From contig JAHJTL010000005.1 of the NCBI GenBank assembly GCA_018829775.1, forward strand, positions 6,506 through 70,505: a stretch of 64,000 nt of DNA, given 5' to 3'. The notes below the pieces were generated by a model. It did not search any database and was not told the origin of the DNA. It saw nothing but the letters and a program-made list of their open reading frames with translations. Shown here one piece after another: positions 22,146 to 43,151 of this stretch. Position 1 is the first letter of the stretch. Every line of letters starts with the position of its first letter. This DNA comes from Chloroflexota bacterium. GTDB lineage: Bacteria > Chloroflexota > Dehalococcoidia > Dehalococcoidales > RBG-16-60-22. A program made the position numbers and the translations under genes.

Positions 22146-23978
22146 TTACCGCCCAAGCAATTTGCTCAGGCCAAGTTCTTCAAGCTTCTTGGCACTTGGC
22201 TTAGCAGTGTTCAAATCCCAATCCATTGCTTTTAGATAGTCCTTAATCATTAAGTCATCGTCTAATGTCACCTTGGCAACTGGGCCTTTCGTTAGAGGGG
22301 GCTTTCCAAGCGCTCTCGGGTTGTAGAAGTACTTTAGTGGATTCAATTCTTCCCGAAGGTTAAAAAGATGGCGTATGTTGGCGACTCGTTCTCCGACTTT
22401 CAGACAGCTTTCCATAGTATATTCGGTTCCGGTTATTGCCGTGAGAAAATCGGGGATGAACTGGACAGGGTAGGACAGATAGGCAAAAATGCAAATACCG
22501 GAAGAATTCACGATATGCGCCATATTCATGGCCATCTTTTGAAGCTCTCCCGTATTCGTGTAATCATATTTATCTTCACGTTCATCCGTTATCCAGTCGG
22601 TTCCCATAATCCACGCGCGGCCACCCTGAGTATGGCGTGCTGGGGTGGCATCCATCCGGTATGTGACTCCCAGGGCGGGGGTAAACCTGGGGTCGTGGGC
22701 AGGGATTTCTTGCCCCTGAACGTGCACGGCAAATTGTTCCGCACCTTTGCCGAGCTTGGCTGCCGCACGCATTACGCCGTCGGCAAGCAGTGCGCCTATT
22801 CCTTCACGCCCGGCAATTTTCTTGGCGAGCTCCACAATGGCACTGCCATCTCCCCAGCGTAATTCGATACCGACGTCATCTTTCGAGAGGATACCATTCT
22901 GATAGCATTCAATAGCGAAAGCAATGGCTGAACCGACGGATATAGTGTCCAAACCATAGGCATTGCAGATGTCGTTAAAGTGGATGATTGATTCGAGGTC
23001 ATCATTCAGACACAGAGTACCTGTCATGCACAGTGTCTCATACTCTGGCTTGTGGCAGACACTCGCCCGGCCTGGTTTTGCCTTCATGTGTCCCCCGCAG
23101 CGAATGGGACACTGCCAGCAGCCATATGTGCGCTCCTGCTCGGCAATTACCGCGTCATCGCTGATTTTACTTGCGGTGGGGAAATCATCCGGCCCAGAAC
23201 CGGCCCAATTTTTTACCGGGGAATCTCCGCTCATGGCACTGGGCTCAGTTATACCTGCGGTACCGTAATCTTTAAAGGTTGGCCCCATATTCTTAAGCTG
23301 CCTGATATAATTACGCCGAAGTTCTTTCGCATGCATTTCATCTGCCATGGGCACCTTCATATTGCCTTTGACAACCACAGCTTTTAATTTTTTTGAACCC
23401 ATAACGGCGCCCAGCCCCGAACGACCCGCAGCGCGCCCCTGGTCGTGCATTATGGCCGCGAGGAGGGACATATTTTCACCGGCAGGGCCGATACAGGCAA
23501 CGCTTGCCTTCTGGCCGTGGGCTTCTTTGAGTATGTCCTCGGTTTCCAGGCTATCTTTGCCCCATAAATTCCCCGCATCTTTCAGCTCGACCTTGCCATT
23601 ATCGATACTCAGGTAAACCGGTTTGGAAGCAACGCCGCTGAAGAAAATACCATCATAGCCAGCGAACTTGAGATTCGGGCCGAAGTCGCCGCCGCAGTTG
23701 GCATCGCCCCATGTCCCGGTTAGGGGTGACTTTGCTACGGCTACAAATCGACCACTGCACATAGTAGGTGTAGCCGTTAGTGGGCCGGTAAGTAAACCAA
23801 ATATGTTATCCGGGCCAAGCGGGTCAACCTTGGGTTTCATTCGCTCATAGAGAATCCTGGCACCAAGGCCGTAGCCTCCCATGAAGTCCTGGCGTAGTTC
23901 CTCGCTTAATACTTCTTCTTTACATACTCCTTTTGCTAAGTCTACAAAGAGCAATTTACCCATATAACCTTTGGCCAT
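22146..23978 (-). CDS. aor: Aldehyde:ferredoxin oxidoreductase (tungstopterin AOR family)
   Basis: 610 aa. N-terminus YMGKLLFVDLAKG...GGYGLGARILYE...GPLTATP...SGRF.VAAKSPLTG, and CxxC...C cluster ligands (GCWQCPIRCG). Confidence 0.9.
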   Translation of the reverse strand: MAKGYMGKLLFVDLAKGVCKEEVLSEELRQDFMGGYGLGARILYERMKPKVDPLGPDNIFGLLTGPLTATPTMCSGRFVAVAKSPLTGTWGDANCGGDFGPNLKFAGYDGIFFSGVASKPVYLSIDNGKVELKDAGNLWGKDSLETEDILKEAHGQKASVACIGPAGENMSLLAAIMHDQGRAAGRSGLGAVMGSKKLKAVVVKGNMKVPMADEMHAKELRRNYIRQLKNMGPTFKDYGTAGITEPSAMSGDSPVKNWAGSGPDDFPTASKISDDAVIAEQERTYGCWQCPIRCGGHMKAKPGRASVCHKPEYETLCMTGTLCLNDDLESIIHFNDICNAYGLDTISVGSAIAFAIECYQNGILSKDDVGIELRWGDGSAIVELAKKIAGREGIGALLADGVMRAAAKLGKGAEQFAVHVQGQEIPAHDPRFTPALGVTYRMDATPARHTQGGRAWIMGTDWITDEREDKYDYTNTGELQKMAMNMAHIVNSSGICIFAYLSYPVQFIPDFLTAITGTEYTMESCLKVGERVANIRHLFNLREELNPLKYFYNPRALGKPPLTKGPVAKVTLDDDLMIKDYLKAMDWDLNTAKPSAKKLEELGLSKLLGR

Positions 23979-25435: not shown

Positions 25436-27331
25436 ATGGAAGAAATATTAACTGGAAAAGAAGGGGAAAGGCATTTTCTTCTGGGAAATGAGGCCATTGT
25501 CAGAGGCGCACTCGAAGCCGGGGTGGATATTGCAGCATTATATCCCGGGACTCCAATGTCGGAAATCGGCGATGTTTTTCATGCTTTGGCCAGAAGCCTG
25601 AGAGATAAAGGCGAAGAACCGAGTTTCTACTTTGAGTGGTCTGCGAATGAGAAAGTGTCTCTCGATGAGTGTATTGCCGCTTCTCTCTCCGGTTTAAGGG
25701 CTTTATGTCCCATGAAAGCTCAGGGATTTAATGTCGCTTCCGATTCTTTCTTGGATTATTTAACCGCATGTAATCTGGTGGAAACCGACATCAAAGGAGG
25801 CCTGGTCTTCATCTGTGCCGATGACCCCGGGGGAACATCTTCGGTTAATGAGCAGGATGACCGGTATATATCCATAATAGCGGATGTCCCGATGCTGGAG
25901 CCATCGAATTGCCAGGAAATGAAGGATATGACTGCAAAGGCCTTCGATATCGCTGAAGAGATTCATTTGCCAATATTTTTAAGAACGGTCAATACGGTGA
26001 ATCTTTCCCGGGGTGACCTCGTATTCGGCAAACTTGGTGTACCCCGTCGCAAGGGCGAGATAAAAGGGGTGCCTCTCTCTTTTGATAGGACAAGATGCCA
26101 CGCCAATATCCTGAAGAAAATGGAGAAAGCAAAGGAGCTTTCCGAGAAATCGGAATATAACAGAGTTATTAAATTTGATGGTGCAAAAACGGGAAAGAAA
26201 ATCGGTGTCGTTGCCTCCAGCATTTCCATAAGCTATGCGGAAGAAATCATTCGTGAGCTTGGAGTGGAGACCGAACTACTGGCCCTCGGTTTTACCAATC
26301 CGCTTCCCGAAAAGCTGTGCAAAGATTTCATTGGTAGATTTGATGAGCTGGTCATCGTTGAGGAGCTTTCACCTTTCCTGGAAACGCAGTTCCTCAAGAT
26401 GGCCCATGAAATATCCGCCAGGGCCAGGATATGGGGAAAAGAGACCGGACACTTCCCAAGGGCCGGACAATACAGGCTGGAGACGGTGGCTGAACCACTG
26501 GCCAGGGTGTTCGGGGTGGATAACCCGATACCGAGACTGGAAGGCCCTGAAATAGCGGTTGCCGCCCGTTCTCTGACAAATTGCCCGGGGTGCCCGCACC
26601 GGAACACTTACTATGCGATTAAGCAGATAGTCCCAGAAGACGCCATATTTGCCAATGACCAGGGCTGTTACTTATTGGGAGGGCTGGAACCTTACAAAAT
26701 GAGCCATGCTCAGTACTCCATGGGGGCAAGCATCGGTCTGGCTTGCGGGTTCCACCAGGCAACTGACAAACCGGCAATCGCATATATCGGGGATTCCACT
26801 TTTTTCCATAACGGAATGTCACCGCTGGCCAATGCCGTCCACCACAACTATGATATCACGGTGGTCGTCATGGACAACGGGGCGACAGCGATGTCGGGTT
26901 TTCAAATGCATCCGGGAACCGACCGTGACGCTATGTGCAGAGAAGCGATACCGATTAAGATTGAGGATGTGGCGAGAGGGCTGGGAGCCACGTTCGTTGA
27001 AGTTGTCAATCCCAACAACATAGAAGAGGCAAAGGATGTTTTCAAACGGGCGATAGCGCACAGCGGAGTGTCAGTTGTGGTCAGCAAGGCTTTGTGCAGG
27101 TTAATGGATACCAGGGAGAAGAGACGCCAGGGCCTGGAGATACCTGCCTACAAGGTAGACCAGGAAAAATGTGACCAATGCAAGATATGTATTGATGTAT
27201 ATGCCTGCCCGGCCTTCTATGAGGCAGCCGGTAAGATTTACATAGATGATATCCAATGTACCGGATGCGGTGTTTGTCAGGGAATATGCCCTGTCGGAGC
27301 AATAATAGAGTTAGGAGCGGAGAATGGATAG
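25436..27331 (+). CDS. iorA: Indolepyruvate:ferredoxin oxidoreductase, alpha subunit
   Basis: 631 aa. GNEAIVRGALEAGVDIAALYPGTPMSEI, the TPP motif GDSTFFHNG...NGATAMSG, and C-terminal 2x[4Fe-4S] (CDQCKICIDVYACP, CTGCGVCQGICP). Confidence 0.9.
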   Translation: MEEILTGKEGERHFLLGNEAIVRGALEAGVDIAALYPGTPMSEIGDVFHALARSLRDKGEEPSFYFEWSANEKVSLDECIAASLSGLRALCPMKAQGFNVASDSFLDYLTACNLVETDIKGGLVFICADDPGGTSSVNEQDDRYISIIADVPMLEPSNCQEMKDMTAKAFDIAEEIHLPIFLRTVNTVNLSRGDLVFGKLGVPRRKGEIKGVPLSFDRTRCHANILKKMEKAKELSEKSEYNRVIKFDGAKTGKKIGVVASSISISYAEEIIRELGVETELLALGFTNPLPEKLCKDFIGRFDELVIVEELSPFLETQFLKMAHEISARARIWGKETGHFPRAGQYRLETVAEPLARVFGVDNPIPRLEGPEIAVAARSLTNCPGCPHRNTYYAIKQIVPEDAIFANDQGCYLLGGLEPYKMSHAQYSMGASIGLACGFHQATDKPAIAYIGDSTFFHNGMSPLANAVHHNYDITVVVMDNGATAMSGFQMHPGTDRDAMCREAIPIKIEDVARGLGATFVEVVNPNNIEEAKDVFKRAIAHSGVSVVVSKALCRLMDTREKRRQGLEIPAYKVDQEKCDQCKICIDVYACPAFYEAAGKIYIDDIQCTGCGVCQGICPVGAIIELGAENG

Positions 27332-27923
27332 AGGAGGAACAAATATTCTGCTGGCGGGCGTTGGTGGGTTGGGTGTGATAACTGCTTCAAATATCATCGG
27401 CATAGCAGCGGTCGGAGTCGGCAAAAAGGTATCCAGCGCTGAGGTTCACGGGATAGCACAGAGAGGCGGCTCGGTTACGGGCACGGTCCGGATTGGAGAT
27501 AATAGCGTTAGCCCGTTGCTGGGGGATGGTCGAGCCGATATTATTCTGGGATTTGAGCCTCTTGAAGTGCTGAGAAATATATCAAAGGCAAGTAAAAGCA
27601 CCATCGTCATTACTGATATTACCCCGGTAAGGGTCATTACCCCCACCCAATTTGTCTATCCAAAGCTTGAAGACATTTTTGCTGAGATTAGAGGAAGATG
27701 CGCCAGACTTTATGAAATCGATTGCCTCGCCCTGGCTAAAAAAGCTGGCACAGCTGTCGTACGCCCTTCAGTTTTACTGGGTGCTCTATCTGAGATTGAA
27801 GAATTCCCGATCAGTTCCGAAGTCCTTTTGAAGTCCGTCGAGGAAAATGTGCCGGCAAGGTATAAGGAACAAAATATTGCCGCTTTTAAAGAAGGTGCTA
27901 ACTTCATTAGAGCAAAGCTTTAA
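27324..27923 (+). CDS. iorB: Indolepyruvate:ferredoxin oxidoreductase, beta subunit
   Basis: 199 aa. Overlaps the iorA stop by 8 nt. ILLAGVGGLGVITAS...HGIAQRGGSV is typical of the POR-gamma/IorB fold. Confidence 0.85.
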   Translation: MDRGGTNILLAGVGGLGVITASNIIGIAAVGVGKKVSSAEVHGIAQRGGSVTGTVRIGDNSVSPLLGDGRADIILGFEPLEVLRNISKASKSTIVITDITPVRVITPTQFVYPKLEDIFAEIRGRCARLYEIDCLALAKKAGTAVVRPSVLLGALSEIEEFPISSEVLLKSVEENVPARYKEQNIAAFKEGANFIRAKL

Positions 27924-30561: not shown

Positions 30562-31143
30562 TTAAGTCTTCAGAACACCAGCCGTTTCCAGTATTCTCCA
30601 AAATGCGTAATCTGCATTATGGACAATCATTCCTACAAGGCTTCTCCTGACATTTTCACCTTCCATTGAGTGAGCACCAGCTATATGCGCAATCTTTTCT
30701 GGTAAACCTACAGATAGCGCGATATGAACTCCGTATACAGGATGCCGAATTGAAGGCCAACCGGTAACACGAGGGTCAGATTTCCATCTCTCTTGATTGG
30801 CTGCGTCAAACTCAAAAGGTTTACCGAGATCGTGGCAAAGTCCACCCGCGATCACTTCATCCATATCTACGTTAAATTGCGGGAAAGTGTCTGTTAATTC
30901 CTTCGCAATAGCTGCAGATAAACGAGCTACAGACCTGAGATGATCTGCCTGGGTACCGGTTCTCATCGCAGGGGTACCGGGATTTCCCGACGCAGGGATA
31001 TCTTCAATTTTCTTATATTCACTTGTGGCTAATGACACCGCCCAGGCATCGTAAACCTTTTCCCTAATTTCCTGGTTCTTAATCTGCTTTGCTTCAGGAA
31101 GAGCTTTGATTACTCCATCTCGTATCTTTTTATCGATCTCCAT
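30562..31143 (-). CDS. HD-domain metal-dependent phosphohydrolase
   Basis: 193 aa. H..(ADHLRSV)...LCHDLGKP...H pattern. Confidence 0.7.
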   Translation of the reverse strand: MEIDKKIRDGVIKALPEAKQIKNQEIREKVYDAWAVSLATSEYKKIEDIPASGNPGTPAMRTGTQADHLRSVARLSAAIAKELTDTFPQFNVDMDEVIAGGLCHDLGKPFEFDAANQERWKSDPRVTGWPSIRHPVYGVHIALSVGLPEKIAHIAGAHSMEGENVRRSLVGMIVHNADYAFWRILETAGVLKT

Positions 31144-31199: not shown

Positions 31200-31227
31200 A
31201 TTATAATCCTATATAATGAGATGTCAA
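31200..31227 (-). promoter_or_regulatory. Strong sigma-70-type promoter (copy 3 of the recurrent module) for the HD-domain gene
   Basis: Minus strand reads AGTATTGACATCTCATTATATAGGATTATAATTC, i.e. TTGACA-N16-TATAAT. Confidence 0.7.
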
Positions 31228-31337
31228 TACTAAGACAGCGAAATCGGCTGGAGCACGTAAAAGAATAAAATATTATAAGAGAATATATTAAAATGGCGAT
31301 ATAATGAAACTAAATACTTTAGAAAGAGGAGAACAAA

Positions 31338-31958
31338 ATGACAAACGAACAAATGAGGGAAGTAATTAACCTGGATGTATACTTTGACTATATTTGACCC
31401 TACGTCTACAATGCAGCAGTTTGGTTGCAAAGAGTGCAAGAGGATATCAAAGATAAGTTAATCGTCAACTGGAAGTATTCCAGCCTTGAGCAGATTAACA
31501 GCCAGCAGGGACCCCAATGGAAAATCTGGGAACAGCCTGAAGACTACCAATCTCGCGGTTTGCGCGCTTTCCAGGCTGCGGAAGCTGCCCGGCAGCAGGG
31601 TGAAAGTGTCTTTCATTCATTTCATATTGCCTTACTTAAAGCCAAGCACGAACAAAAGCGTGATATTGCCGACGTAAACACCCTCATTGAAGTGGCCAAT
31701 AATAATGGCCTGGAGATGAAACGATTTAAAAATGACCTGAGCAACCGTCAGCTACTGACAAAGCTTGCTAACGAGCATACTTTCGCCGTGGAAGAGCTGG
31801 GTGTTTTCGGTACTCCTACTTTAGTCTTCCCGGAAAACCAGGCAATTTTCCTGAAAATGTCACCTCCTCCACCACAGGAGGAATGCCTCCCGCTCTTTAA
31901 TGAACTATTTAATCTGGCATACCGCAGGCGAATTATCCATGAAATAAAAAGACCGTAA
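31338..31958 (+). CDS. DsbA / HCCA-isomerase / GST-kappa-like thioredoxin-fold protein with in-frame TGA (31395-31397) at the catalytic position; candidate selenoprotein (or pseudogene)
   Basis: ATG 31338 has a GAGGAG SD 6 nt upstream. It reads MTNEQMREVINLDVYFDYI-TGA-PYVYNAAVWLQRVQED..., in frame with the ORF-track ORF 31425-31958 (called from TTG). The TGA aligns with C of CPWC (DsbA/FrnE) or S of SPYSW (GST kappa/HCCA isomerase). Confidence 0.55.
31412..31429 (+). promoter_or_regulatory. SECIS-like hairpin downstream of the in-frame UGA
   Basis: UGCAGC-AGUUUG-GUUGCA forms a 6-bp stem (one G-U pair) with a GU-containing apical loop. The stem begins 14 nt, and the apical loop about 20 nt, downstream of UGA. 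Confidence 0.35.
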
Positions 31959-32028: not shown

Positions 32029-32604
32029 CTATCCGCGGCCAAAATATGGATTCTTACCAGTTACCGACAGCGGGATGCCAATAATAATATCTGACTTTAA
32101 CAATCCCAGTGACTTGGCGGCGGCTCCAACAGTGTACATCATCCGGTTATCAATGCCGAGTTCAGCAGCCAGCTTGGCCGATGAACACAAGGCAATGCCC
32201 AGGTCCATTGCTTGAAATATGCAAACCGGGCCGACAAAATCCCTTGCCTTTGCCTTCTTTCTCGCTTTGGACAGGTGTTCACAGCTGGCAAAGCCACATG
32301 CACCGCAGTCCAATGGCTGCTCTATCTTTTTTGGTTCACCGGTAACGCCGAGCAACAGGACACAGCCTGAATTTCTAACATTATTCGCGTCCCTTCTATA
32401 AACGGAGGAAAGGTAGTCCGGCTTCTCTGCCGCCTTCCGTTCCATAGCTAATGCCAGCTTTTCCAAATCATCGTCCACCAGAACGAGGCTTGCTGTGGAG
32501 TCAACCGCCCTCCCCTTGGGCGCTGTTCTGGCACTTGCTGCCATCAATGCCGCCGCCATAGTTACCGCGCTTTTCTCGACCTCTATGCTTTTCAATTGAG
32601 CCAT
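32029..32604 (-). CDS. DUF2148 (ferredoxin-domain-like) protein
   Basis: 191 aa. AAALMAASARTAPKGRAVD... and the Cys cluster CGACGFASC resemble DUF2148 proteins, recognised from memory. Confidence 0.65.
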   Translation of the reverse strand: MAQLKSIEVEKSAVTMAAALMAASARTAPKGRAVDSTASLVLVDDDLEKLALAMERKAAEKPDYLSSVYRRDANNVRNSGCVLLLGVTGEPKKIEQPLDCGACGFASCEHLSKARKKAKARDFVGPVCIFQAMDLGIALCSSAKLAAELGIDNRMMYTVGAAAKSLGLLKSDIIIGIPLSVTGKNPYFGRG

Positions 32605-32724: not shown

Positions 32725-33639
32725 TTAGTGAGTCGCTGCGCTGGGCGAATCCAGGTCATGATCCGTCCATCCACAAGCTTCGCACAAACTCACATAAGTG
32801 TCCAACTCAGCTCGGAAGTCGGCGACTACTCTATAAGAAGAGCATTTCGGGCATCTATCGGGGGTCCCTTTTTCATGTCGAACCAGGGCAATACCAAATG
32901 TTGACAATAGCGTTTGGACAGCGTCAACGGCCATCCATCCGTCGAACCGAACAGCGTTCGAGGAGTGTGTGAGCCAGTTGACAAGTTGCCACGTTGATTT
33001 AGACATTGCCTTAAGGTAACCGCGGACCTCTTCCGCACTGTTTCCTCGCGCTATTGTGTCCGCGATTAATCCTGACCATTGCACAAAGTCACCCGCCTTA
33101 GGTGCCTTTTGTCCCTCGGGGACCATATCAGTCGAAGAGACCGACCGTACGAATGCGATTAGGCACTCTCTACACATCATACCCACCGCCTGAAATCCTT
33201 CAGCTTCGTCGGCCTCCTCGAGTGCTTCCGCAGCTTGTTCCCAACGTCTCCACACGGATTGGCTTAGACGGTGTTCATGCTCAGGGGCTTTGCGAGCTTG
33301 CCTTGCCATCACCCTCATGGTCACGCCGATGTGGAATGAAACGGTATAGTCCAGGCTTGGAAAAAGCTTTTGAGAATACAAGTTGGTCGGGTTAGTGATG
33401 ACCCAATATCTGTCTTTGTTAGTCCTGACATCCCATGCGTCGAGCCTTCTATCGAAGAGGTTTTCAATAGCCAACTTCTCGAGGTGCGTTACCTTTTCTC
33501 CTCCGGCTTCCAACTCAACATATTCTCGGATGTAACGCTCCTCATGTTCAGGCTGTTTCAGTACAGTCTTCTTCAGCGCAGAGTCGGACACAGGACCGGG
33601 AATCGCGTGGGAGGATTTGCCAGTCTTCCGTGGAGACAT
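32725..33639 (-). CDS. Hypothetical protein with C-terminal zinc ribbon
   Basis: ATG 33639 has an AGGAG SD 6 nt upstream (ORF-track start is 33687). C-terminal CPKCSSYRVV...CEACGW is a CxxC...CxxC ribbon. No family recognised. Confidence 0.55.
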   Translation of the reverse strand: MSPRKTGKSSHAIPGPVSDSALKKTVLKQPEHEERYIREYVELEAGGEKVTHLEKLAIENLFDRRLDAWDVRTNKDRYWVITNPTNLYSQKLFPSLDYTVSFHIGVTMRVMARQARKAPEHEHRLSQSVWRRWEQAAEALEEADEAEGFQAVGMMCRECLIAFVRSVSSTDMVPEGQKAPKAGDFVQWSGLIADTIARGNSAEEVRGYLKAMSKSTWQLVNWLTHSSNAVRFDGWMAVDAVQTLLSTFGIALVRHEKGTPDRCPKCSSYRVVADFRAELDTYVSLCEACGWTDHDLDSPSAATH

Positions 33640-33695
33640 AACATGCTCCTGCGTTAGTACTTTATGAGTATTATAACATAAAGACAATTTACTGC

Positions 33696-34739
33696 TTAAG
33701 GTTTCAATAAGACCGCCAGGTTTTGTCCACTCCGTATCGAGTCGAATCCTCTTTTGGCTTCTTCAAGCGGCATTATCTCGGAAATCAGCGGTTTGATATT
33801 GACGAGCTTGTTGGCCATCAGATTAAGGGCAGCCAATATTGACCCACCGATGTGTCCTCGAATAGTCAACTTATTGGCTACCCAGTGGGCAGGGTCTACC
33901 TCCATAGGCCTGATGAATCCTGTCAAGGCTATTGTACCACCGTGTCTGACCATGCGAACTGCCTGATTTAACACCTTCCCTTCACGCACACAAACTAAGA
34001 CCGCATCAGGGCCCGCATCAGTTAACTCTGTAACTGCATCCACAATGTCCACTTCTCTGGCATTGAGCGCTGCATCGGCTCCCATTTCCAGCGCCTTATC
34101 CAAGCGCGATTTCACTATGTCGGCAACAATGACAGGGGCTACACCCATAGCTCTTGCGCATAGCATCGCACACAGGCCGATTCTGCCGGCGCCAATGATT
34201 ACGGCGGACTGCCCTATTTTCAAATCTGCGGCGTTGATTGAGCCTATTCCTGTAGCCAGAGGTTCTGTTAGGCAAGCTTCTTCTGACGGTACATTTTCAG
34301 GCACCAATTGAAGTGAATGTTGAGGCTTCAAGAAATATTCGGCCATGGCACCGCCCCTTTTCCAGAATGCCTGACTTCCTACATAGGAACCTCTTGATGG
34401 TCCACCAAGACACAGGTGATACATCAGGTGCTTACAGAAGTAGCACTCCCCGCAGGGCTGTTTTATCTGAGAGCTCGTCACCCTGTCGCCGACTGACCAT
34501 CCCTGAACATCTTTACCGATTTCGACAACTTCAGCTACCCATTCATGCCCCAGTATGGTCCCAGCATGCAACTCAAAACCGGGGATATCTTGAAGTGCAC
34601 CATCAAGATATTCAATGTCAGTGCCGCAAATCGAACAGTATATGGTTCTGAGGAGGACGGTCCCGGGTTCCGCCCGTGGCGTTGGAATTTCCTGTACCTT
34701 GATGCTTTTCAGATCTTCCTGGATTACTACTGCTCTCAT
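33696..34739 (-). CDS. Zn-dependent MDR alcohol/polyol dehydrogenase (paralogue A)
   Basis: CGTD, GHE, the structural Zn motif CGECYFCKHLMYHLC, and GAGRIG. ATG 34739 is preceded by GAGGTG; the GTG at 34748 lies inside that SD. Confidence 0.85.
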   Translation of the reverse strand: MRAVVIQEDLKSIKVQEIPTPRAEPGTVLLRTIYCSICGTDIEYLDGALQDIPGFELHAGTILGHEWVAEVVEIGKDVQGWSVGDRVTSSQIKQPCGECYFCKHLMYHLCLGGPSRGSYVGSQAFWKRGGAMAEYFLKPQHSLQLVPENVPSEEACLTEPLATGIGSINAADLKIGQSAVIIGAGRIGLCAMLCARAMGVAPVIVADIVKSRLDKALEMGADAALNAREVDIVDAVTELTDAGPDAVLVCVREGKVLNQAVRMVRHGGTIALTGFIRPMEVDPAHWVANKLTIRGHIGGSILAALNLMANKLVNIKPLISEIMPLEEAKRGFDSIRSGQNLAVLLKP

Positions 34740-34848
34740 ACCAAACACCTCATCATGATACTGATATGAATTATTATCTCATATCGGCCTTAAGTACTCC
34801 TATTTAACTTACAATGTGCATCGTCAGCATTTATGGCACAGCCGCTTT

Positions 34849-37197: not shown

Positions 37198-38553
37198 CTA
37201 AACGCTCGGATTAACAACGCGTCCAATAAACAGTATCGTGCCGGTCTCAATGTCTCTAATCAGAAAGATGAAGGGTCGATCAACCGTAACCTCGACCGGA
37301 GGAGCGGGCACCGCTGTGAGCGTCATTATCACCGCTGTGGCTGCTGCTGCTTCGGTGCCGGCCTCATCGACGGAGACAAAAGCCTTGTGCAGGACGTCAT
37401 CTATGGCGAGGTCCCGGTTGCCCGTCATGCCAGAAAAATCCGCGTCCGCAGAGAAAGCCACCGGCATGCCCATCGTTGTCAGGGCCTTCTTCAGGCTGAA
37501 TTCGGATTCGAACTCAAATTTTGGTATCGTCAGGTTAACCTGCTGGCCTGCAAGGCTTGAAATAATCCCGGTAACCCGCTGGTAACCCATTGAGCTTTCG
37601 AAAGTCTCAAACCGGCCTTCCCTGGGGAGTAAAATAACCATCGAGAGTTCATGGCCATCGTAGGGAAGTTCCACTGCCTGGTAATCGTCTCCCTCGGCAT
37701 AGCCGAACGATTCCGTTTGTGTCATCATCGGCACGATGACCTCTCCGCCATCCAGCAGGTAGAAGGGACCATCGGTAGTCGCGTCCTCGTTGAACGGAAA
37801 TTGCCATGCCGCGTTAAAGTAAATGGCATTGGTTAAGACAAGACGTGTTAGTGCATCAATCGCACCCTCTGGAATCAGGTCTTCAATCCTGCCCTCGGTC
37901 TGTTCACTTATCCAGTCATTGATGGTGATTCGAGATGCCTCGGGGGCATTGACGAAATCAAGGGCCCTTAACCCGGCACCGTAGTTTTCAGCCAGGACAT
38001 CAAGGAATTCGGAGAGGAATCTGTAGTCTTCCTGACCCCATATGGCGTTCACGATATTCAGGCGAAAGCCCTCTTCATCCTTCCCCTGGGCACCCTCACC
38101 GCGTTTGCTGAGCTCGATATCAAGGCCGTTAAATGCCGGATGCAGGCGATCCTGGGATAGGACAAAGCGCAGGGTGTCGGACATCTGCTTCTCGGTCTCG
38201 CCGCGGGCACTGGAGTAGGTCATCGCCAGTGCCTGGGAGATACTGTATGGAGAAAAGAAGACATTGTTATTCTCCTGTCTAAGTAACTGATAAAGGTCGA
38301 AAGCGAAAGCGCTGTTCTCTTCGACCAGCATGGTGAAATCGGATTCATTTACTTCAGGCGAAGTTATTCGCGGCTTCTCTGACTGGAGTATATTGACTGA
38401 TATGGGTGCAGGAGTTGGAGATGGTGGAGGCGATGGAGCAGGAGCCGGGGCCGGGGCTGGAGAAGGAATCGGCTGAGGTGTGGCACATCCTGACATGATA
38501 AGAGTAACCAGACTTAAAAGAACGATTCCGGCAGATAATCTCGTTTTACTCAT
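37198..38553 (-). CDS. Serpin-family protease inhibitor, lipoprotein with Pro/Ala-rich linker
   Basis: Lipobox LIMSGC, then PSPAPAPAPAPSPPPSPTPAP. Serpin core (FSPYSISQALAMTY..., NAIYFNAAW) and hinge/RCL (DEAGTEAAAATAVIMT). ATG 38553 has a GAAAGAGG SD. Confidence 0.85.
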   Translation of the reverse strand: MSKTRLSAGIVLLSLVTLIMSGCATPQPIPSPAPAPAPAPSPPPSPTPAPISVNILQSEKPRITSPEVNESDFTMLVEENSAFAFDLYQLLRQENNNVFFSPYSISQALAMTYSSARGETEKQMSDTLRFVLSQDRLHPAFNGLDIELSKRGEGAQGKDEEGFRLNIVNAIWGQEDYRFLSEFLDVLAENYGAGLRALDFVNAPEASRITINDWISEQTEGRIEDLIPEGAIDALTRLVLTNAIYFNAAWQFPFNEDATTDGPFYLLDGGEVIVPMMTQTESFGYAEGDDYQAVELPYDGHELSMVILLPREGRFETFESSMGYQRVTGIISSLAGQQVNLTIPKFEFESEFSLKKALTTMGMPVAFSADADFSGMTGNRDLAIDDVLHKAFVSVDEAGTEAAAATAVIMTLTAVPAPPVEVTVDRPFIFLIRDIETGTILFIGRVVNPSV

Positions 38554-38631
38554 GTTGACCTCTTTCTCAGCTGCTTTCTGCATTATATAACGAAAAAGGT
38601 AACGGAAGGTTAGTAAAATCGTGGATACTTA

Positions 38632-38866: not shown

Positions 38867-39439
38867 TTATTCGCTGATGAGGATGTCCTCTGAACTGCGT
38901 TTTGGTACATGATGCGTACTATCCTTCTCGCGCCAGTACTTAGTATCATCACCCGGCTTCATTGTATCAATTACTACCCTTTCTTTTGGTTTCCCTAAAG
39001 CTATTGTCAGTAATATCTCGTATCGGGATGGTACGTTCAATAGCTTTTGTGCCTCATCTTTTCTGATTGAACCTAACATGCATCCGCCAAAACCCACCTC
39101 GGTTGCTCCGAGCAATATGGTTTGTGCGGCGATGCCGTGGTCTATGCCGAACGATTTACTTACTTCAGTGTCTCCCAAGATGATTATATAGGCTGATGGC
39201 CGTTCTCCTTCACTTGGCCCAGGCCAATCAGGTAGGGCTCCAGCCCAAGTCAGGAGAGGAAATATCTTGCTATTTCTATCTGGATCACAACTGAGATAGA
39301 ACTTAAGTGGCTGTTTGTTCCCCCCCGTTGCGGATAATCGTGCTAGATCGACCAGTTCCTTCAATGTATCAATGCTTATCTCGACATCTTCATAGAAACG
39401 CCGGTAGCATCTATTTCTTCGAACAAGGTCGTTAAACAT
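38867..39439 (-). CDS. Nitroreductase-family protein
   Basis: 190 aa. RRNRCYRRF N-terminus and a typical nitroreductase fold pattern. Confidence 0.8.
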   Translation of the reverse strand: MFNDLVRRNRCYRRFYEDVEISIDTLKELVDLARLSATGGNKQPLKFYLSCDPDRNSKIFPLLTWAGALPDWPGPSEGERPSAYIIILGDTEVSKSFGIDHGIAAQTILLGATEVGFGGCMLGSIRKDEAQKLLNVPSRYEILLTIALGKPKERVVIDTMKPGDDTKYWREKDSTHHVPKRSSEDILISE

Positions 39440-39519: not shown

Positions 39520-40683
39520 CTAGGCAACACTTAGGGCGGATTGAATCTCCGTCCTGGCAAATTCGTCGGTCTCGCCTGACAAGTTTGACTCTAAAATTTG
39601 GCGAGCACGGCTACCCCCTATCCTCCCGAGACCCCAGGCCGCATAGCCCCGAACCATTCCCTCTGTATCCTGCATTGCCTGGGCCAGGTCGGGGATGAAC
39701 GAGGGGTCACCCGTATTCCCAAGGGCTATGGCTGCATTTCTCTGGAAATACTTCTTCTTATAAATGTAGTTATACATTAGCGGTTGTACTCTTTTAGTGA
39801 AAAACTCATCGGACAGATTTAACAGCTTCGTCAGCTCAAAGTCTTCGGCTACCCTGGCCAGGAACTCGTTTTGTGGTAGCTGCGCCTTTAGTCTTTTCCG
39901 GTTTCTGGGGCATACTTCCTGGCAGATGTCACAGCCGTGAATCCAGGCCCCCATCTTCTCCCTGATTTCAGGCGGGATGTAGCTTCCCACTTCTCCTACT
40001 TTGCCGTCCCCCTTTTCCTGAGTAACCACGTGATTGAACATGATGCAGCGGCGCGGGTCCATCTTCATCGGCTCGTAGAGTGAACCTGTGGGACAGGCGT
40101 CAATACAGAGGGTGCATTTAGGAGGGCATTTTACTTCGTACGTCGGTGCGTCGTACTCAAGCTCCTTATCAATGACGAAACCGCTGACAGTAATGAACGA
40201 CCCGATTCCATCAGCGAAGGCGAAGCCGTTCTTTCCGTAGGTGACTGTACCTGCCCGGCACGCCGCCAGGCGCTCCGGGACTCTTATTTCATGGTCTACC
40301 TGGCATCCGCTGCTCTCCAGAAAGTCCCGCATAAGTCGGTATCGGGCCCCGTTAATGCGATGGGAAGGGGTCAGGTAACACCTGGCCTGGTAGATACGGC
40401 CTATCTTGCCCACCAGTTTCTCTGGGAAGGACTCCTTAAATGCGTCGTAAACTACCATAACGATTGATTTGGCTGACGGCATCACGCTTCTGGGCTCCGC
40501 GCCTTTGAGTGGCTGGGTGGGGCGGTCAATGTAAAAGGAATACATCTCGTGCCTGGCCTTGAGGTTGGCTATATATTCGGGAAAAGGCTCGGCGGTGGTG
40601 ATACCCACCCGGCTGTAGCCCAGGTCAAGGGCAAAATCTTTGATATCTTCAGTAAGCGACATAAATTCAGTCTGTCCTCCCAC
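39520..40683 (-). CDS. Epoxyqueuosine reductase (QueG)-like 4Fe-4S protein with C-terminal HEAT repeats
   Basis: N-terminal DUF1730-like region (IKDFALDLGYSRVGIT). Two Fe-S motifs (CPPKCTLCIDACP, CDICQEVCP). HEAT-like tail (AIALGNTGDPSFIPDL...VRGYAAWGLGRIGG). The start is ambiguous: GTG 40683 or ATG 40662. Confidence 0.7.
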   Translation of the reverse strand: MGGQTEFMSLTEDIKDFALDLGYSRVGITTAEPFPEYIANLKARHEMYSFYIDRPTQPLKGAEPRSVMPSAKSIVMVVYDAFKESFPEKLVGKIGRIYQARCYLTPSHRINGARYRLMRDFLESSGCQVDHEIRVPERLAACRAGTVTYGKNGFAFADGIGSFITVSGFVIDKELEYDAPTYEVKCPPKCTLCIDACPTGSLYEPMKMDPRRCIMFNHVVTQEKGDGKVGEVGSYIPPEIREKMGAWIHGCDICQEVCPRNRKRLKAQLPQNEFLARVAEDFELTKLLNLSDEFFTKRVQPLMYNYIYKKKYFQRNAAIALGNTGDPSFIPDLAQAMQDTEGMVRGYAAWGLGRIGGSRARQILESNLSGETDEFARTEIQSALSVA

Positions 40684-42092: not shown

Positions 42093-43151
42093 TTAGGGCT
42101 GCAGTAGAGGAGCTAAGTTTTCTCCACTGTACATAGAATCAAAAGCTCTCTGTACCTCCTTCAGAGGGATAATCTCAGAAATAAGTGGCCTGATATTGAT
42201 TTGCCTATTAGCTATCATACGCATAGATGTATATATTAACCCACTGGGCCCACCGAAGCCGCCAGCGACAGTGGTAAATCTTACTTGCTTCTTCCACCAA
42301 ACCATAGGGTCAATCTCCGTTGGTAACCCGTATCCAGCCAAGCCTATTATACCAGCGCGTCTGACCATGTCGACAGCTTGATTTAAGACGTCGCCACTTC
42401 GGACACAAATGATGACCGCATCCGGGCCCGCCCCCGTGAGCTTTACCACCTCGGAGACAACATCAACTTCATTGGGATTTAGAACCGCGTCGGCACCCAT
42501 TTCCAGGGCCTTATCCAGACGGGACCTAATCGGGTCGATGACAATAACAGGGGATGCTCCAGCCGCTTTAGCACATAGCATTGTTCCCATGCCTATTTTC
42601 CCGACTCCAATGACGACTGCTGACTCCCCGGACTTAAGCCCGGTAGTTTTGACTGCGCTTACTCCGGTGCGGAGCGGTTCCACCAGTGCTGCTTCCTCAT
42701 CGGATACATTGTCGGGTATTTTCTGGGCTGCGTGTGATGGCCTGACGAAATACTCGGCCATTGCCCCCAATCTGTGTGCGTAATCTCTTACTATTATAGG
42801 TAATGCTCGCGGGGATACATCCTTGCCCTGGCAGAGGTGATGTAACTGACGCCGGCAGAAATAGCATTGACCACAGGGCAACAGGTAGTCACCCGTGGTA
42901 ACTCGGTCACCGACTGACCACCCATCGACTCCTTCACCTACGGCTGCTACCTCTGCCGCGAACTCATGACCAAGTATAGCCCCTGCCTTGATAGGGTTAC
43001 CATGCATTTGGTTGTCAACATATTCAAGGTCAGTACCACAAATAGAGCAGTATATGGTCTTCAGTAACAGTGTTCCCGGTTGTACCGATGGAGTTGGCAC
43101 TTCCTCATATGCTATAAGTCTTTTGCCTTTGACAACGGCTGCTTTCATCAA
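42093..43151 (-). CDS. Zn-dependent MDR alcohol/polyol dehydrogenase (paralogue B)
   Basis: Aligns along its full length with 33696-34739, more than half identical by eye: TIYCSICGTD, ILGHE, CGQCYFCRRQLHHLC, RLDKALEMGADA, AGPDAV..CVR, VLNQAV.MVR, PLISEI.PL. Confidence 0.85.
   Translation of the reverse strand: MMKAAVVKGKRLIAYEEVPTPSVQPGTLLLKTIYCSICGTDLEYVDNQMHGNPIKAGAILGHEFAAEVAAVGEGVDGWSVGDRVTTGDYLLPCGQCYFCRRQLHHLCQGKDVSPRALPIIVRDYAHRLGAMAEYFVRPSHAAQKIPDNVSDEEAALVEPLRTGVSAVKTTGLKSGESAVVIGVGKIGMGTMLCAKAAGASPVIVIDPIRSRLDKALEMGADAVLNPNEVDVVSEVVKLTGAGPDAVIICVRSGDVLNQAVDMVRRAGIIGLAGYGLPTEIDPMVWWKKQVRFTTVAGGFGGPSGLIYTSMRMIANRQINIRPLISEIIPLKEVQRAFDSMYSGENLAPLLQP

What the first reader, a model, noticed from the sequence alone, without database searches (positions are those of the whole stretch)
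31338..31958. In-frame UGA at the catalytic residue of a DsbA/GST-kappa-like protein: candidate selenoprotein missed by ORF calling
The ORF track starts this gene at a TTG (31425), which removes the active-site strand-helix of the thioredoxin fold. An ATG at 31338 with a GAGGAG SD 6 nt upstream opens the same frame. It reads MTNEQMREVINLDVYFDYI-[TGA 31395-31397]-PYVYNAAVWLQRVQ... In the DSBA-like family this segment is (D/E)hYFDahCPWCY in DsbA/FrnE-type proteins, and ..SPYSW/SPFSY in HCCA isomerase and GST kappa. The TGA therefore sits exactly where the nucleophilic Cys or Ser belongs. From 14 nt downstream the mRNA can form UGCAGC-AGUUUG-GUUGCA (31412-31429), a 6-bp stem with a GU-containing apical loop about 20 nt after the UGA. 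That spacing and loop match the general bacterial SECIS model as I remember it. The full-length product would be 206 aa, normal for the family. The alternative is a TGC/TGT-to-TGA pseudogene.
Basis: partly seen in the sequence, partly recalled or inferred. Interest (0 to 1): 0.7.

Follow-up and report, generated by a model that had tools for sequence, protein, structure and literature searches.

The report
Selenocysteine-containing DsbA-like protein gene
The in-frame TGA is a genuine selenocysteine codon at the catalytic position of a cytoplasmic DsbA-like redox protein from a Dehalococcoidia bacterium, but this is a new member of an already catalogued selenoprotein family, so the finding is correct and not very surprising.

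Summary
GAGGAG lies at 31326-31331, the ATG at 31338, the in-frame TGA at 31395-31397 and the TTG ORF start at 31425. The hairpin is at 31412-29 and the product is 206 aa.

The selenoprotein reading is strongly supported.
- At this codon, 78 related loci carry 61 TGA, 17 TGC/TGT and 0 TGG.
- The N-terminal segment upstream of the TGA evolves as coding sequence.
- TGA is a normal stop elsewhere in the window.
- The hairpin (5-6 bp stem, AGUUUG loop 20 nt after the UGA) meets all four criteria of the published bacterial SECIS model.
- The 5-bp core is intact in 58/58 TGA forms but in only 6/14 Cys forms. It has decayed in 8 of about 9 independent Cys lineages.
- One TGA-form relative (L022) has selA-selB directly upstream of the gene.

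Sec machinery could not be checked in the window's own genome.

The protein is closest to Deinococcus DR2335 (PDB 7DK9, TM 0.84), a single-Cys DsbA-like protein of unknown function. The motif is U-P-Y-V, with no resolving Cys.

DsbA-like selenoproteins have been known since 2005, and Dehalococcoidia are known to be selenoprotein-rich. The matching NCBI record already calls a 206-aa product. This is a new member of a known kind, of modest interest.

The parts
31300..31305 (+). Candidate -10 box (TATAAT) of the gene's promoter; weak evidence
   Evidence: Read directly from the sequence. A TATAAT at the same relative position is present upstream of the orthologue in L001. The consensus scan found no full -35/-10 pair on the + strand upstream of the ATG.
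31326..31331 (+). Shine-Dalgarno sequence GAGGAG, 6 nt before the ATG
   Evidence: The upstream frame translates as KE.. in nearly all TGA-form loci, which reflects an AAGGAG-type sequence before the ATG.
31338..31958 (+). Full coding sequence of the DsbA-like selenoprotein: 206 codons including Sec20, stop TAA at 31956-31958
   Evidence: Pfam DSBA PF01323 E = 8e-14 from residue 12. The NCBI record GCA_043824655.1 calls the same 621-nt CDS as 206 residues.
31395..31397 (+). UGA codon 20, decoded as selenocysteine; the catalytic nucleophile at the N-terminus of helix alpha1
   Evidence: 61 TGA, 17 TGC/TGT and 0 TGG at this codon in 78 loci. It aligns with Cys24 of DR2335, 7DK9. In the AF2 model of the Cys homologue P0016, C20-P21 follow strand 10-16 and precede helix 23-40.
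31412..31429 (+). Bacterial SECIS hairpin: stem 31412/31413-31417 pairs with 31424-31428/31429; apical loop AGUUUG at 31418-31423, with G31419-U31420 as the conserved G[U]
   Evidence: Folds. The model criteria come from PMC13188914 and are all met. The 5-bp core is intact in 58/58 TGA forms and in 6/14 Cys forms. L022 shows a wobble intermediate and L023 a compensated pair. Synonymous sites in the stem are nearly frozen, with entropy 0.29 and 0.13 against 0.8-1.6 at flanking third positions.
31425..31427 (+). TTG taken as the start codon by ORF callers; it is really Leu30 and lies inside the 3' arm of the SECIS stem
   Evidence: The 177-aa truncated product is in nr as MBU2534609.1, 'DsbA family protein'. 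ENA and Logan calls also give 177 aa.
31809..31817 (+). Codons for G158-T159-P160, the cis-Pro loop that faces the active site in thioredoxin-fold proteins
   Evidence: G158, T159 and P160 are at least 90% conserved and T161 is invariant in A1 and A2. In the AF2 model they lie just before strand 161-164. The cis-Pro role is inferred from general knowledge of the DsbA/thioredoxin fold.

Best explanation
The gene at 31338-31958 encodes a 206-aa cytoplasmic DsbA-like thioredoxin-fold protein whose only catalytic nucleophile is selenocysteine.

Recoding step (inferred from the established bacterial mechanism). When the ribosome reaches UGA codon 20, a SelB-GTP-Sec-tRNA(Sec) complex binds the hairpin in the mRNA just downstream. 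The hairpin stem starts 14-15 nt after the UGA, and the loop AGUUUG starts 20 nt after it. Sec is inserted and translation does not terminate.

Shown here:
- The TGA/Cys alternation at this codon across the family.
- Coding-type selection on the segment upstream of the TGA.
- The hairpin fits the published bacterial SECIS model.
- The hairpin is retained only where the codon is TGA.
- selA and selB are present next to a TGA-form homologue.

Inferred, not shown:
- Sec is actually inserted in this organism.
- The enzyme chemistry. The motif is U-P-Y-V with no resolving Cys, opposite a GTP cis-Pro loop. The selenolate most likely attacks a disulfide, an S-thiolated protein or an electrophilic substrate and forms a selenenyl-sulfide or Se-adduct intermediate. 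An external thiol or a partner protein would then resolve it. This would be a monothiol-type mechanism like that of 1-Cys glutaredoxins, not the dithiol mechanism of DsbA, FrnE or Rv2466c.
For: - Codon census: 61 TGA, 10 TGC, 7 TGT and 0 TGG in 78 loci that are 54-89% identical to the window protein. All three GTDB genome loci from Dehalococcoidia MAGs have TGA.
- Protein database: 56 Cys, 13 'W' and 51 N-truncated clusters among the best 120.
- Codon-position entropy upstream of the TGA is 0.70/0.35/1.17.
- TGA terminates 15 of 46 large ORFs in the window, so the genetic code is standard.
- SECIS criteria tested: loop 6 nt; stem 5-6 bp; G at the second loop position followed by U or G in 58/58 TGA forms; spacing 20 nt; MFE -7.7 kcal/mol in the window; 57/58 TGA forms at or below -7.5 (mean -11.4).
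- Stem intact in 58/58 TGA forms against 6/14 Cys forms, Fisher p = 2.5e-7.
- On an NJ tree there are at least 9 Sec/Cys switches, with hairpin or loop-G decay in 8 of 9 Cys lineages and in no TGA form.
- L022 has selB (TIGR00475, 349 bits, cutoff 242) and the 3' part of selA (TIGR00474) on the same strand, about 500 nt upstream of its TGA-form gene.
- Dehalococcoidia MAGs with 46-49 selenoproteins are on record (PMC13326102).
- Fold and active-site position.
- Single nucleophile: the +3 residue is V (65) or A (4) and never C, and there is no other conserved Cys.
Against: - No tRNA-Sec, selA, selB or selD was found in the 64-kb window or in 10 kb of adjacent contig. Sec decoding in this particular genome is therefore not shown.
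- The window's own hairpin is weak. It has a G-U pair in a 5-6 bp stem, only just passes the -7.5 kcal/mol threshold, and is no more stable than shuffled sequence.
- No lower stem is supported by covariation.
- The stem overlaps the conserved peptide NAAVWLQ, so part of its conservation comes from the protein.
- No Rfam SECIS family matches, and no NCBIfam selenoprotein model covers the protein.
- The window protein has Ser48 where Phe is nearly invariant.
- The enzymatic function is unknown even for the solved homologue DR2335.
Confidence: 0.92

Rival explanations
1. Pseudogene: a TGC/TGT-to-TGA nonsense mutation inactivated a Cys-type DsbA-like gene.
For: Cys-form homologues exist with TGC or TGT at the codon, one mutation away from TGA. 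The window protein also carries an unusual F48S change.
Against: TGA occurs at the same codon in 61 loci that are 54-89% identical. In these the upstream reading frame, ATG and SD are intact, the upstream segment shows coding-type selection, and no second lesion is present. The same sequence is found in four independent assemblies.
Confidence: 0.01
2. UGA terminates translation. A 19-codon leader peptide is made, and a truncated 177-aa protein starts at TTG 31425 (or GTG 31434) without the active-site strand.
For: ORF callers choose this model. Many database entries are 170-184 aa.
Against: The putative leader is homologous, residue for residue, to strand beta1 and the active-site loop of Cys-form homologues and of DR2335. 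A truncated protein would lack the nucleophile and a core beta-strand. The internal starts chosen by callers differ between homologues. The SD sequence sits before ATG 31338.
Confidence: 0.02
3. Sec-independent read-through: UGA is decoded by a near-cognate tRNA (Trp or Cys), with the hairpin acting as a read-through stimulator.
For: No Sec machinery has been demonstrated for this genome. The hairpin is short.
Against: The column alternates only with Cys and never with TGG, which is the classic Sec/Cys signature at a redox nucleophile. The hairpin matches the bacterial SECIS loop rule (G then U, 20-nt spacing). selAB is adjacent to a TGA-form homologue. The lineage is known to be selenoprotein-rich.
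Confidence: 0.04
4. The organism uses a genetic code in which TGA is a sense codon, as the 'W' in database entries might suggest.
For: 13 of the 120 closest database proteins show W at this position.
Against: 15 of 46 large ORFs in the window end at TGA, and standard-code ORFs tile the window. The W entries sit on short metagenome contigs, where the callers tried a TGA=Trp code. The DNA never has TGG.
Confidence: 0.005

Closest known systems
DsbA-like selenoprotein family (Zhang, Fomenko & Gladyshev 2005, PMC1088965; Zhang et al. 2006, PMC1794560; Peng et al. 2016, PMC5029168; 'form 1' in the 2026 review PMC13188914)
   Same: It has a PF01323 DSBA-like thioredoxin domain. Sec replaces the N-terminal active-site Cys. 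Cys homologues are widespread. A bacterial SECIS hairpin lies just downstream of the UGA.
   Different: The catalogued form 1 has a UxxC redox motif and was assigned to COG2761 (FrnE-like). Here the motif is U-P-Y-V/A, with no Cys at +3 in 69 of 69 family members. The closest structural relative is DR2335, not FrnE.
DR2335 of Deinococcus radiodurans (PDB 7DK9; C24S mutant 7DKA), a single-Cys cytoplasmic DsbA-like protein
   Same: The profile match is full-length (E = 1.7e-22) and the TM-score is 0.84. The motif FD(F/Y)L-C-P-Y-A/V has a single nucleophile at the same column. The WxYFSLxQ and FGTPT motifs are also shared.
   Different: DR2335 has Cys, not Sec, and is only about 27-29% identical. 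No functional or expression data have been reported for it (PMC8945050), so it gives no biochemical assignment.
'DsbA-like protein form 2', motif DxxUP (PMC13188914 Table 1, from Peng et al. 2016)
   Same: It has the PF01323 domain. The literal motif D-x-x-U-P is present here as D17-Y-I-U20-P21.
   Different: [quoted passage not shown] The window protein is a stand-alone 206-aa DsbA domain. The sequence of the representative could not be retrieved, so identity of the two families is untested.
Rv2466c (mycoredoxin-2-type, mycothiol-dependent reductase) of Mycobacterium tuberculosis, PF22234
   Same: It is a cytoplasmic DsbA-like fold. The Pfam match is borderline (28.0 bits, cutoff 27) and the TM-score is about 0.70.
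   Different: Rv2466c uses a CPWC dithiol motif. The sequence match to its PDB chains is weak (E about 5e-3).
E. coli fdhF-type bacterial SECIS and the bSECISearch consensus model
   Same: The stem-loop lies within the coding region just after the UGA. The apical loop is small, with G followed by U near its 5' side. The spacing falls within 16-37 nt.
   Different: Only a 5-6 bp helix is supported here. No bulged U and no extended lower stem are supported by covariation. SelB binding has not been tested.

Membership tests
Bacterial selenoprotein gene (Sec-UGA plus bSECIS) | In-frame UGA aligned with Cys in homologues (Sec/Cys pair) | tested here: met
   17 TGC/TGT against 61 TGA at the same codon. 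56 Cys-form protein clusters.
Bacterial selenoprotein gene (Sec-UGA plus bSECIS) | TGA-containing orthologues in other organisms, with conserved sequence on both sides of the TGA | tested here: met
   61 loci, including 3 Dehalococcoidia MAGs. Coding-type entropy pattern upstream of the TGA.
Bacterial selenoprotein gene (Sec-UGA plus bSECIS) | bSECIS model: 3-9 nt loop, 4-16 bp upper stem, G in the first two loop positions, 16-37 nt spacing, MFE at or below -7.5 kcal/mol (PMC13188914) | tested here: met
   Loop 6 nt (AGUUUG), stem 5-6 bp, spacing 20 nt, MFE -7.7 in the window. 57/58 TGA forms pass the MFE criterion and 58/58 keep the loop G.
Bacterial selenoprotein gene (Sec-UGA plus bSECIS) | selA, selB, selD and tRNA-Sec present in the same genome | not testable with these tools
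   Absent from the window and from 10 kb of flank. In the related contig L022, selB (TIGR00475, 349 bits) and selA lie next to the TGA-form gene.
Bacterial selenoprotein gene (Sec-UGA plus bSECIS) | Selenium actually incorporated (75Se labelling or mass spectrometry) | not testable with these tools
   Requires an experiment.
DSBA-like thioredoxin domain (Pfam PF01323) | Profile match above the gathering score, and the thioredoxin fold with a helical insertion | tested here: met
   52.3 bits against a cutoff of 25.6. AF2 model of Cys homologue P0016 with pLDDT 84.5 and DsbA topology. The top PDB matches are all DsbA-like proteins.
Canonical DsbA/FrnE and 'DsbA-like selenoprotein form 1' | CxxC or UxxC dithiol motif | tested here: not met
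   The motif is U-P-Y-V. The +3 residue is V in 65 and A in 4 family members, and never C. No other Cys is conserved.
DR2335-like single-Cys DsbA-like proteins | Full-length similarity to DR2335, with a single nucleophile at the Cys24 column | tested here: met
   hmmsearch E = 1.7e-22 over profile positions 8-207, with Cys aligned to Cys. Foldseek TM 0.84, E = 3.8e-12.
Rv2466c-like (PF22234) | Profile match and the CPWC motif | tested here: inconclusive
   28.0 bits against a cutoff of 27, which is borderline. The CPWC motif is absent. The PDB sequence match is weak, E = 6.5e-3.
GST kappa / HCCA isomerase | Ser nucleophile in an S-P-(Y/F)-S context and a GSH-binding DsbA-like fold | tested here: not met
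   Only a distant fold match (TM about 0.60, 14-17% identity, ranks 26-50). No sequence-level match. The nucleophile here is Sec/Cys.
DsbA-like selenoprotein form 2 (DxxUP) | DxxUP motif in a PF01323 domain, and homology to the representative MDP6049977.1 | tested here: inconclusive
   The motif is literally present as D17-x-x-U20-P21. The representative sequence could not be obtained, and its 'crotonase' name suggests another architecture.

The most novel reading that the evidence does not exclude
This may be an undescribed third form of DsbA-like selenoprotein. It would be a DR2335-type, single-nucleophile U-P-Y-V enzyme with no resolving cysteine, not covered by any NCBIfam selenoprotein model. 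In sediment Dehalococcoidia, Sec would be the predominant and possibly ancestral state, replaced by Cys at least nine times, with the SECIS hairpin decaying after each replacement. That would make it a clean natural system for studying Sec-to-Cys exchange and SECIS erosion. It would also be a lead to the unknown function of the DR2335 family.
Probability: 0.4. Interest if true: 0.4.

Novelty: new member of a known kind. Interest (0 to 1): 0.3.

Why it matters
In practical terms, the 177-aa product called by ORF finders and present in nr (MBU2534609.1) lacks the active site. Many database entries for this family are either N-truncated or carry a spurious Trp at the catalytic position, which misleads alignments and functional inference.

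Biologically, the finding adds a single-nucleophile, DR2335-like subfamily to the DsbA-like selenoproteins. It shows that most of its members in sediment Dehalococcoidia use Sec. It also gives a well-sampled example in which a SECIS hairpin embedded in coding sequence is held by selection only while the codon is UGA.

It does not reveal a new mechanism. Sec recoding, DsbA-like selenoproteins and large Dehalococcoidia selenoproteomes are all established.

Tried and rejected
- Single-sequence folding of 31395-31460. The hairpin is predicted but z = 0.24 against shuffles, so this says nothing by itself.
- Rfam at gathering threshold on the whole window, and a permissive search on 31330-31500. No SECIS or tRNA-Sec match.
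- A second selenoprotein gene in the window. All other TGA-interrupted frames overlap real genes on the other strand or in another frame.
- selA, selB and selD in the window, judged by reading the ORF translations and by tblastn with the E. coli proteins. None found.
- tRNA-Sec in the 83 related loci held at that point, using aragorn. None found.
- The 10 kb beyond the window's left edge on the public contig. It holds an ABC transporter, an M20 peptidase, an SDR and a B12-binding protein, with no Sec genes.
- A lower SECIS stem. A possible 11-13/45-47 stack is at least 91% pairable but shows no informative covariation, so it was not claimed.
- Conserved operon context. Synteny exists only with the closest relatives L001, L005 and L012, so it gives no functional clue.
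- NCBIfam. No specific model; the best hit is 24.5 bits against a cutoff of 190.
- Literature on 7DK9 and DR2335. No functional study is in the library.
A natural Cys homologue, P0016, was modelled instead.
- Exact look-ups of the 206-aa product. The U version and the DNA-reference read-through were rejected by the tools, and the X and W versions are not in the collection. That the NCBI product contains U is therefore an inference.
The window's own genome could therefore not be scanned for sel genes.

Full report
**1. Observation**

- GAGGAG lies at 31326-31331, followed by a 6-nt spacer and the ATG at 31338.
- An in-frame TGA at 31395-31397 is codon 20.
- The ORF finder's TTG start is at 31425, in the same frame, and the stop is TAA at 31956-31958.
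- Read through the TGA, the product is 206 aa: MTNEQMREVINLDVYFDYI-U-PYVYNAAVWLQRVQ...
- The hairpin UGCAGC-AGUUUG-GUUGCA occupies 31412-31429 and appears in both the MFE and centroid folds.
- That 66-nt fold is no more stable than dinucleotide shuffles (z = 0.24). The single sequence therefore cannot show that the hairpin matters.

**2. Protein family and position of the TGA**

With Cys in place of the stop, the protein matches Pfam DSBA (PF01323, 52.3 bits, cutoff 25.6) from residue 12, which includes the part upstream of the TGA. It also gives a borderline match to Rv2466c-like PF22234.

A profile of the family finds PDB 7DK9/7DKA over its full length (E = 1.7e-22). The family's Cys column aligns with the Cys in DLYFDFLCPYAW, and 7DKA carries Ser at that position.

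An AlphaFold model of the natural Cys homologue P0016 (69% identical; pLDDT 84.5, pTM 0.83) shows the classical arrangement. The order is strand 10-16, then C20-P21, then helix 23-40, a helical insertion, the GTP cis-Pro loop at 158-160, and two more strands and a helix.

Foldseek identifies 7DK9 as DsbA-like protein DR2335 of Deinococcus radiodurans (TM 0.84) and 7DKA as its C24S mutant. Rv2466c (about 0.70), FrnE and GST kappa (about 0.60) follow.

The TGA therefore sits at the canonical nucleophile position. There is no room for a signal peptide before strand beta1, so the protein is most likely cytoplasmic (inference).

**3. Pseudogene or recoding**

The protein database gives two length classes. 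Among the best 120 clusters:
- 56 read FD(Y/F)x-C-PYVY.
- 13 read FDYx-W-PYVY.
- 51 start 25-35 residues later.

The DNA settles what these are.
- All three GTDB genome loci are Dehalococcoidia MAGs, 67-84% identical to the window protein. Each has TGA at the column, with an intact upstream frame, an ATG and a GGAGG.
- In 78 loci where the motif could be located (54-89% identical), the codon is TGA 61 times, TGC 10 times, TGT 7 times and never TGG.
- The 'W' entries are therefore TGA translated with a TGA=Trp code on short contigs.
- In the TGA forms, the ten codons before the TGA have codon-position entropies of 0.70/0.35/1.17. Downstream the values are 0.51/0.40/1.06. The N-terminal segment is thus under protein-coding selection.
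- TGA ends 15 of the 46 ORFs of at least 150 aa in the window, so the code is standard.

These results exclude a pseudogene, a sequencing error and a reassigned code. They also make a 19-codon leader plus a truncated protein very unlikely.

**4. The RNA element**

Positions here are numbered from the U of UGA as 1. The stem pairs 19-23 with 30-34 (GCAGC/GCUGC; the window has GUUGC, giving one G-U pair). A sixth pair, 18-35, is present in 42 of 58 TGA forms. The loop at 24-29 is AGUUUG.

The published bacterial SECIS model (PMC13188914) sets four criteria, tested.

| Criterion | Window | TGA forms |
|---|---|---|
| Apical loop 3-9 nt | 6 nt | 6 nt |
| Upper stem 4-16 bp | 5-6 bp | 5-bp core in 58/58 |
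| G in the first two loop positions (typically N1-G-[G/U]-N-N2) | A-G-U-U-U | G second, then U or G, in 58/58 |
| 16-37 nt between UGA and loop | 20 nt | 20 nt |
| MFE at or below -7.5 kcal/mol | -7.7 | 57/58 pass, mean -11.4 |

The comparison with Cys forms is the decisive part.
- The 5-bp core is intact in 58 of 58 distinct TGA forms and in only 6 of 14 Cys forms (Fisher p = 2.5e-7, not corrected for phylogeny).
- Three Cys forms have also lost the loop G.
- Synonymous sites inside the stem are nearly frozen in TGA forms: entropy 0.29 at position 21 and 0.13 at position 33. Flanking third positions run at 0.8-1.6.
- The pair 20-33 shows a wobble intermediate in L022 and a fully compensated U-A in L023.
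- On a neighbour-joining tree of 76 distinct proteins, with the Sec/Cys column masked, parsimony needs at least nine Sec/Cys switches. The hairpin or loop G has decayed in at least one member of 8 of the 9 Cys lineages and in no TGA form.

Two caveats apply. The sample was collected by similarity to a TGA form, so the inferred Sec root is tentative. Part of the stem's conservation also comes from the conserved peptide NAAVWLQ. No lower stem is supported, and no Rfam family matches.

**5. Sec machinery**

- The window has one tRNA (Val) and no selA, selB or selD.
- The 10 kb beyond its left edge on the public contig has none either.
- E. coli SelA, SelB and SelD were searched against the window plus 89 fetched loci (443 kb). 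The only hits were in L022 (contig SDBU01002056.1), a TGA-form locus 67% identical to the window protein.
- L022 has a full-length SelB (E = 7e-74; NCBIfam TIGR00475, 349 bits against a cutoff of 242). It also has the 3' part of SelA (TIGR00474). Both are on the same strand, about 500 nt upstream of the DsbA-like gene.
- The literature records Dehalococcoidia MAGs with 46-49 predicted selenoproteins (PMC13326102).

Sec decoding is thus shown for a genome that carries a TGA-form orthologue and is known in the class. For the window's own genome it remains untested.

**6. Public annotation**

The window matches NCBI assembly GCA_043824655.1 (contig JBDRSR010000011.1, 87 kb) and ENA ERZ27247117 (contig k141_368678, 83.6 kb).
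- The ENA and Logan gene calls give 177 aa. That truncated protein is in nr as MBU2534609.1, 'DsbA family protein [Chloroflexota bacterium]'.
- The NCBI-derived call on the 87-kb contig is 206 residues across an identical TGA.
- Versions with W or X at residue 20 are not in the collection. The simplest reading is that the product is written with U. This is an inference, because the tools reject U.

**7. Mechanism**

Recoding works through SelB-dependent insertion of Sec at UGA20, directed by the hairpin at 31412-29. The steps shown and inferred are listed under the best explanation.

The enzyme has a single nucleophile. The residue at +3 is Val (65) or Ala (4) and never Cys. The only other frequent Cys, in the EEC motif, is present in 15 of 34 aligned sequences. 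I therefore propose a monothiol-type cycle. The selenolate attacks a disulfide, an S-thiolated protein or an electrophile, and the Se-S or Se-adduct intermediate is resolved by an external thiol or a partner protein. This is inference only. DR2335 itself has no reported function (PMC8945050), and there is no conserved gene neighbourhood.

**8. Comparison with what is known**

DsbA-like selenoproteins were described in 2005 (UxxC, COG2761; PMC1088965). They were found in several genomes in 2006 and counted in 41 organisms in 2016. The 2026 review lists form 1 (UxxC) and form 2 (DxxUP, named as a crotonase-family protein).

The window protein belongs to the same superfamily and works the same way at the recoding level. 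It fails the UxxC criterion of form 1. It satisfies DxxUP in the literal sense, but I could not compare it with the form 2 representative. No NCBIfam model covers it.

**9. Verdict**

It is a new member, and possibly a distinct single-nucleophile subfamily, of a known selenoprotein kind in a lineage known to be selenoprotein-rich. Interest is 0.3.

Noticed in passing
L022:18-2502 (selA fragment 18-515, selB 649-2502) and L022:3001-3639: In one related metagenome contig (SDBU01002056.1), selA-selB lie directly upstream of the TGA-form DsbA-like gene on the same strand. A small minus-strand ORF (2509-2769) lies between them. None of the other fetched loci gave a selA or selB hit, so the adjacency is probably incidental.
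   Followed up: yes
window 32725-33687 (- strand): An ORF of 304-320 aa with no Pfam hit on record and C-terminal CxxC...CxxC pairs sits between the DUF2148 gene (32029-32604) and the Zn-ADH gene (33696-34748). In the closest syntenic relatives (L001, L005, L012) those two genes are adjacent, only about 50 nt apart in L005. So this looks like a roughly 1.1-kb insertion specific to the window's lineage.
   Followed up: partly
window 31479-31481 (codon 48 of the DsbA-like gene): The window protein has Ser48 (KYSSLEQ). Phe is at least 90% conserved at this column in both family alignments (KYFSLEQ), and every other sequence in alignment A1 has Phe. It is a single T-to-C change. The gene is called with the same length in four independent assemblies (NCBI, ENA, two Logan). 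The effect on function is unknown.
   Followed up: partly
protein database hits P0001-P0005, P0007, P0008, P0010, P0028, P0043, P0061, P0064, P0070, P0132, P0136: Public metagenome gene calls translate the Sec-UGA as Trp, through TGA=Trp code models applied to short contigs. This puts a spurious W at the catalytic position. Together with the 51 N-truncated clusters, more than half of the family's best database entries are wrong at the active site.
   Followed up: yes
window 31200-31227 (- strand): A perfect sigma-70 consensus promoter (TTGACA, 16 nt, TATAAT; 12 of 12) points towards the divergent HD-domain gene (30562-31143, - strand). The 194-nt intergenic region is AT-rich.
   Followed up: no
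window 33696-34748 and 42093-43151 (both - strand): Two paralogous Zn-dependent alcohol dehydrogenase genes (350 and 352 aa, clearly similar by eye) lie in a region rich in oxidoreductases. These include an aldehyde:ferredoxin oxidoreductase (22146-23978), indolepyruvate:ferredoxin oxidoreductase IorAB (25436-27923), a nitroreductase (38867-39439) and a Fer4_16/HEAT QueG-like protein (39520-40683).
   Followed up: no
window 37198-38583 (- strand): A serpin-family gene (461 aa by ORF; called as 451 or 377 aa in public records) with a Pro/Ala-rich N-terminal region and a lipoprotein-like Cys. Serpins are uncommon in bacteria.
   Followed up: no
positions 24 and 27 of the SECIS loop (window 31418 and 31421), across homologues: Loop variants co-occur. 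A24 with U27 (AGUUUG) is seen in 46 sequences and G24 with C27 (GGUCUG) in 8, with few mixed forms. This may reflect lineage alone or a constraint on loop geometry; it was not resolved.
   Followed up: no
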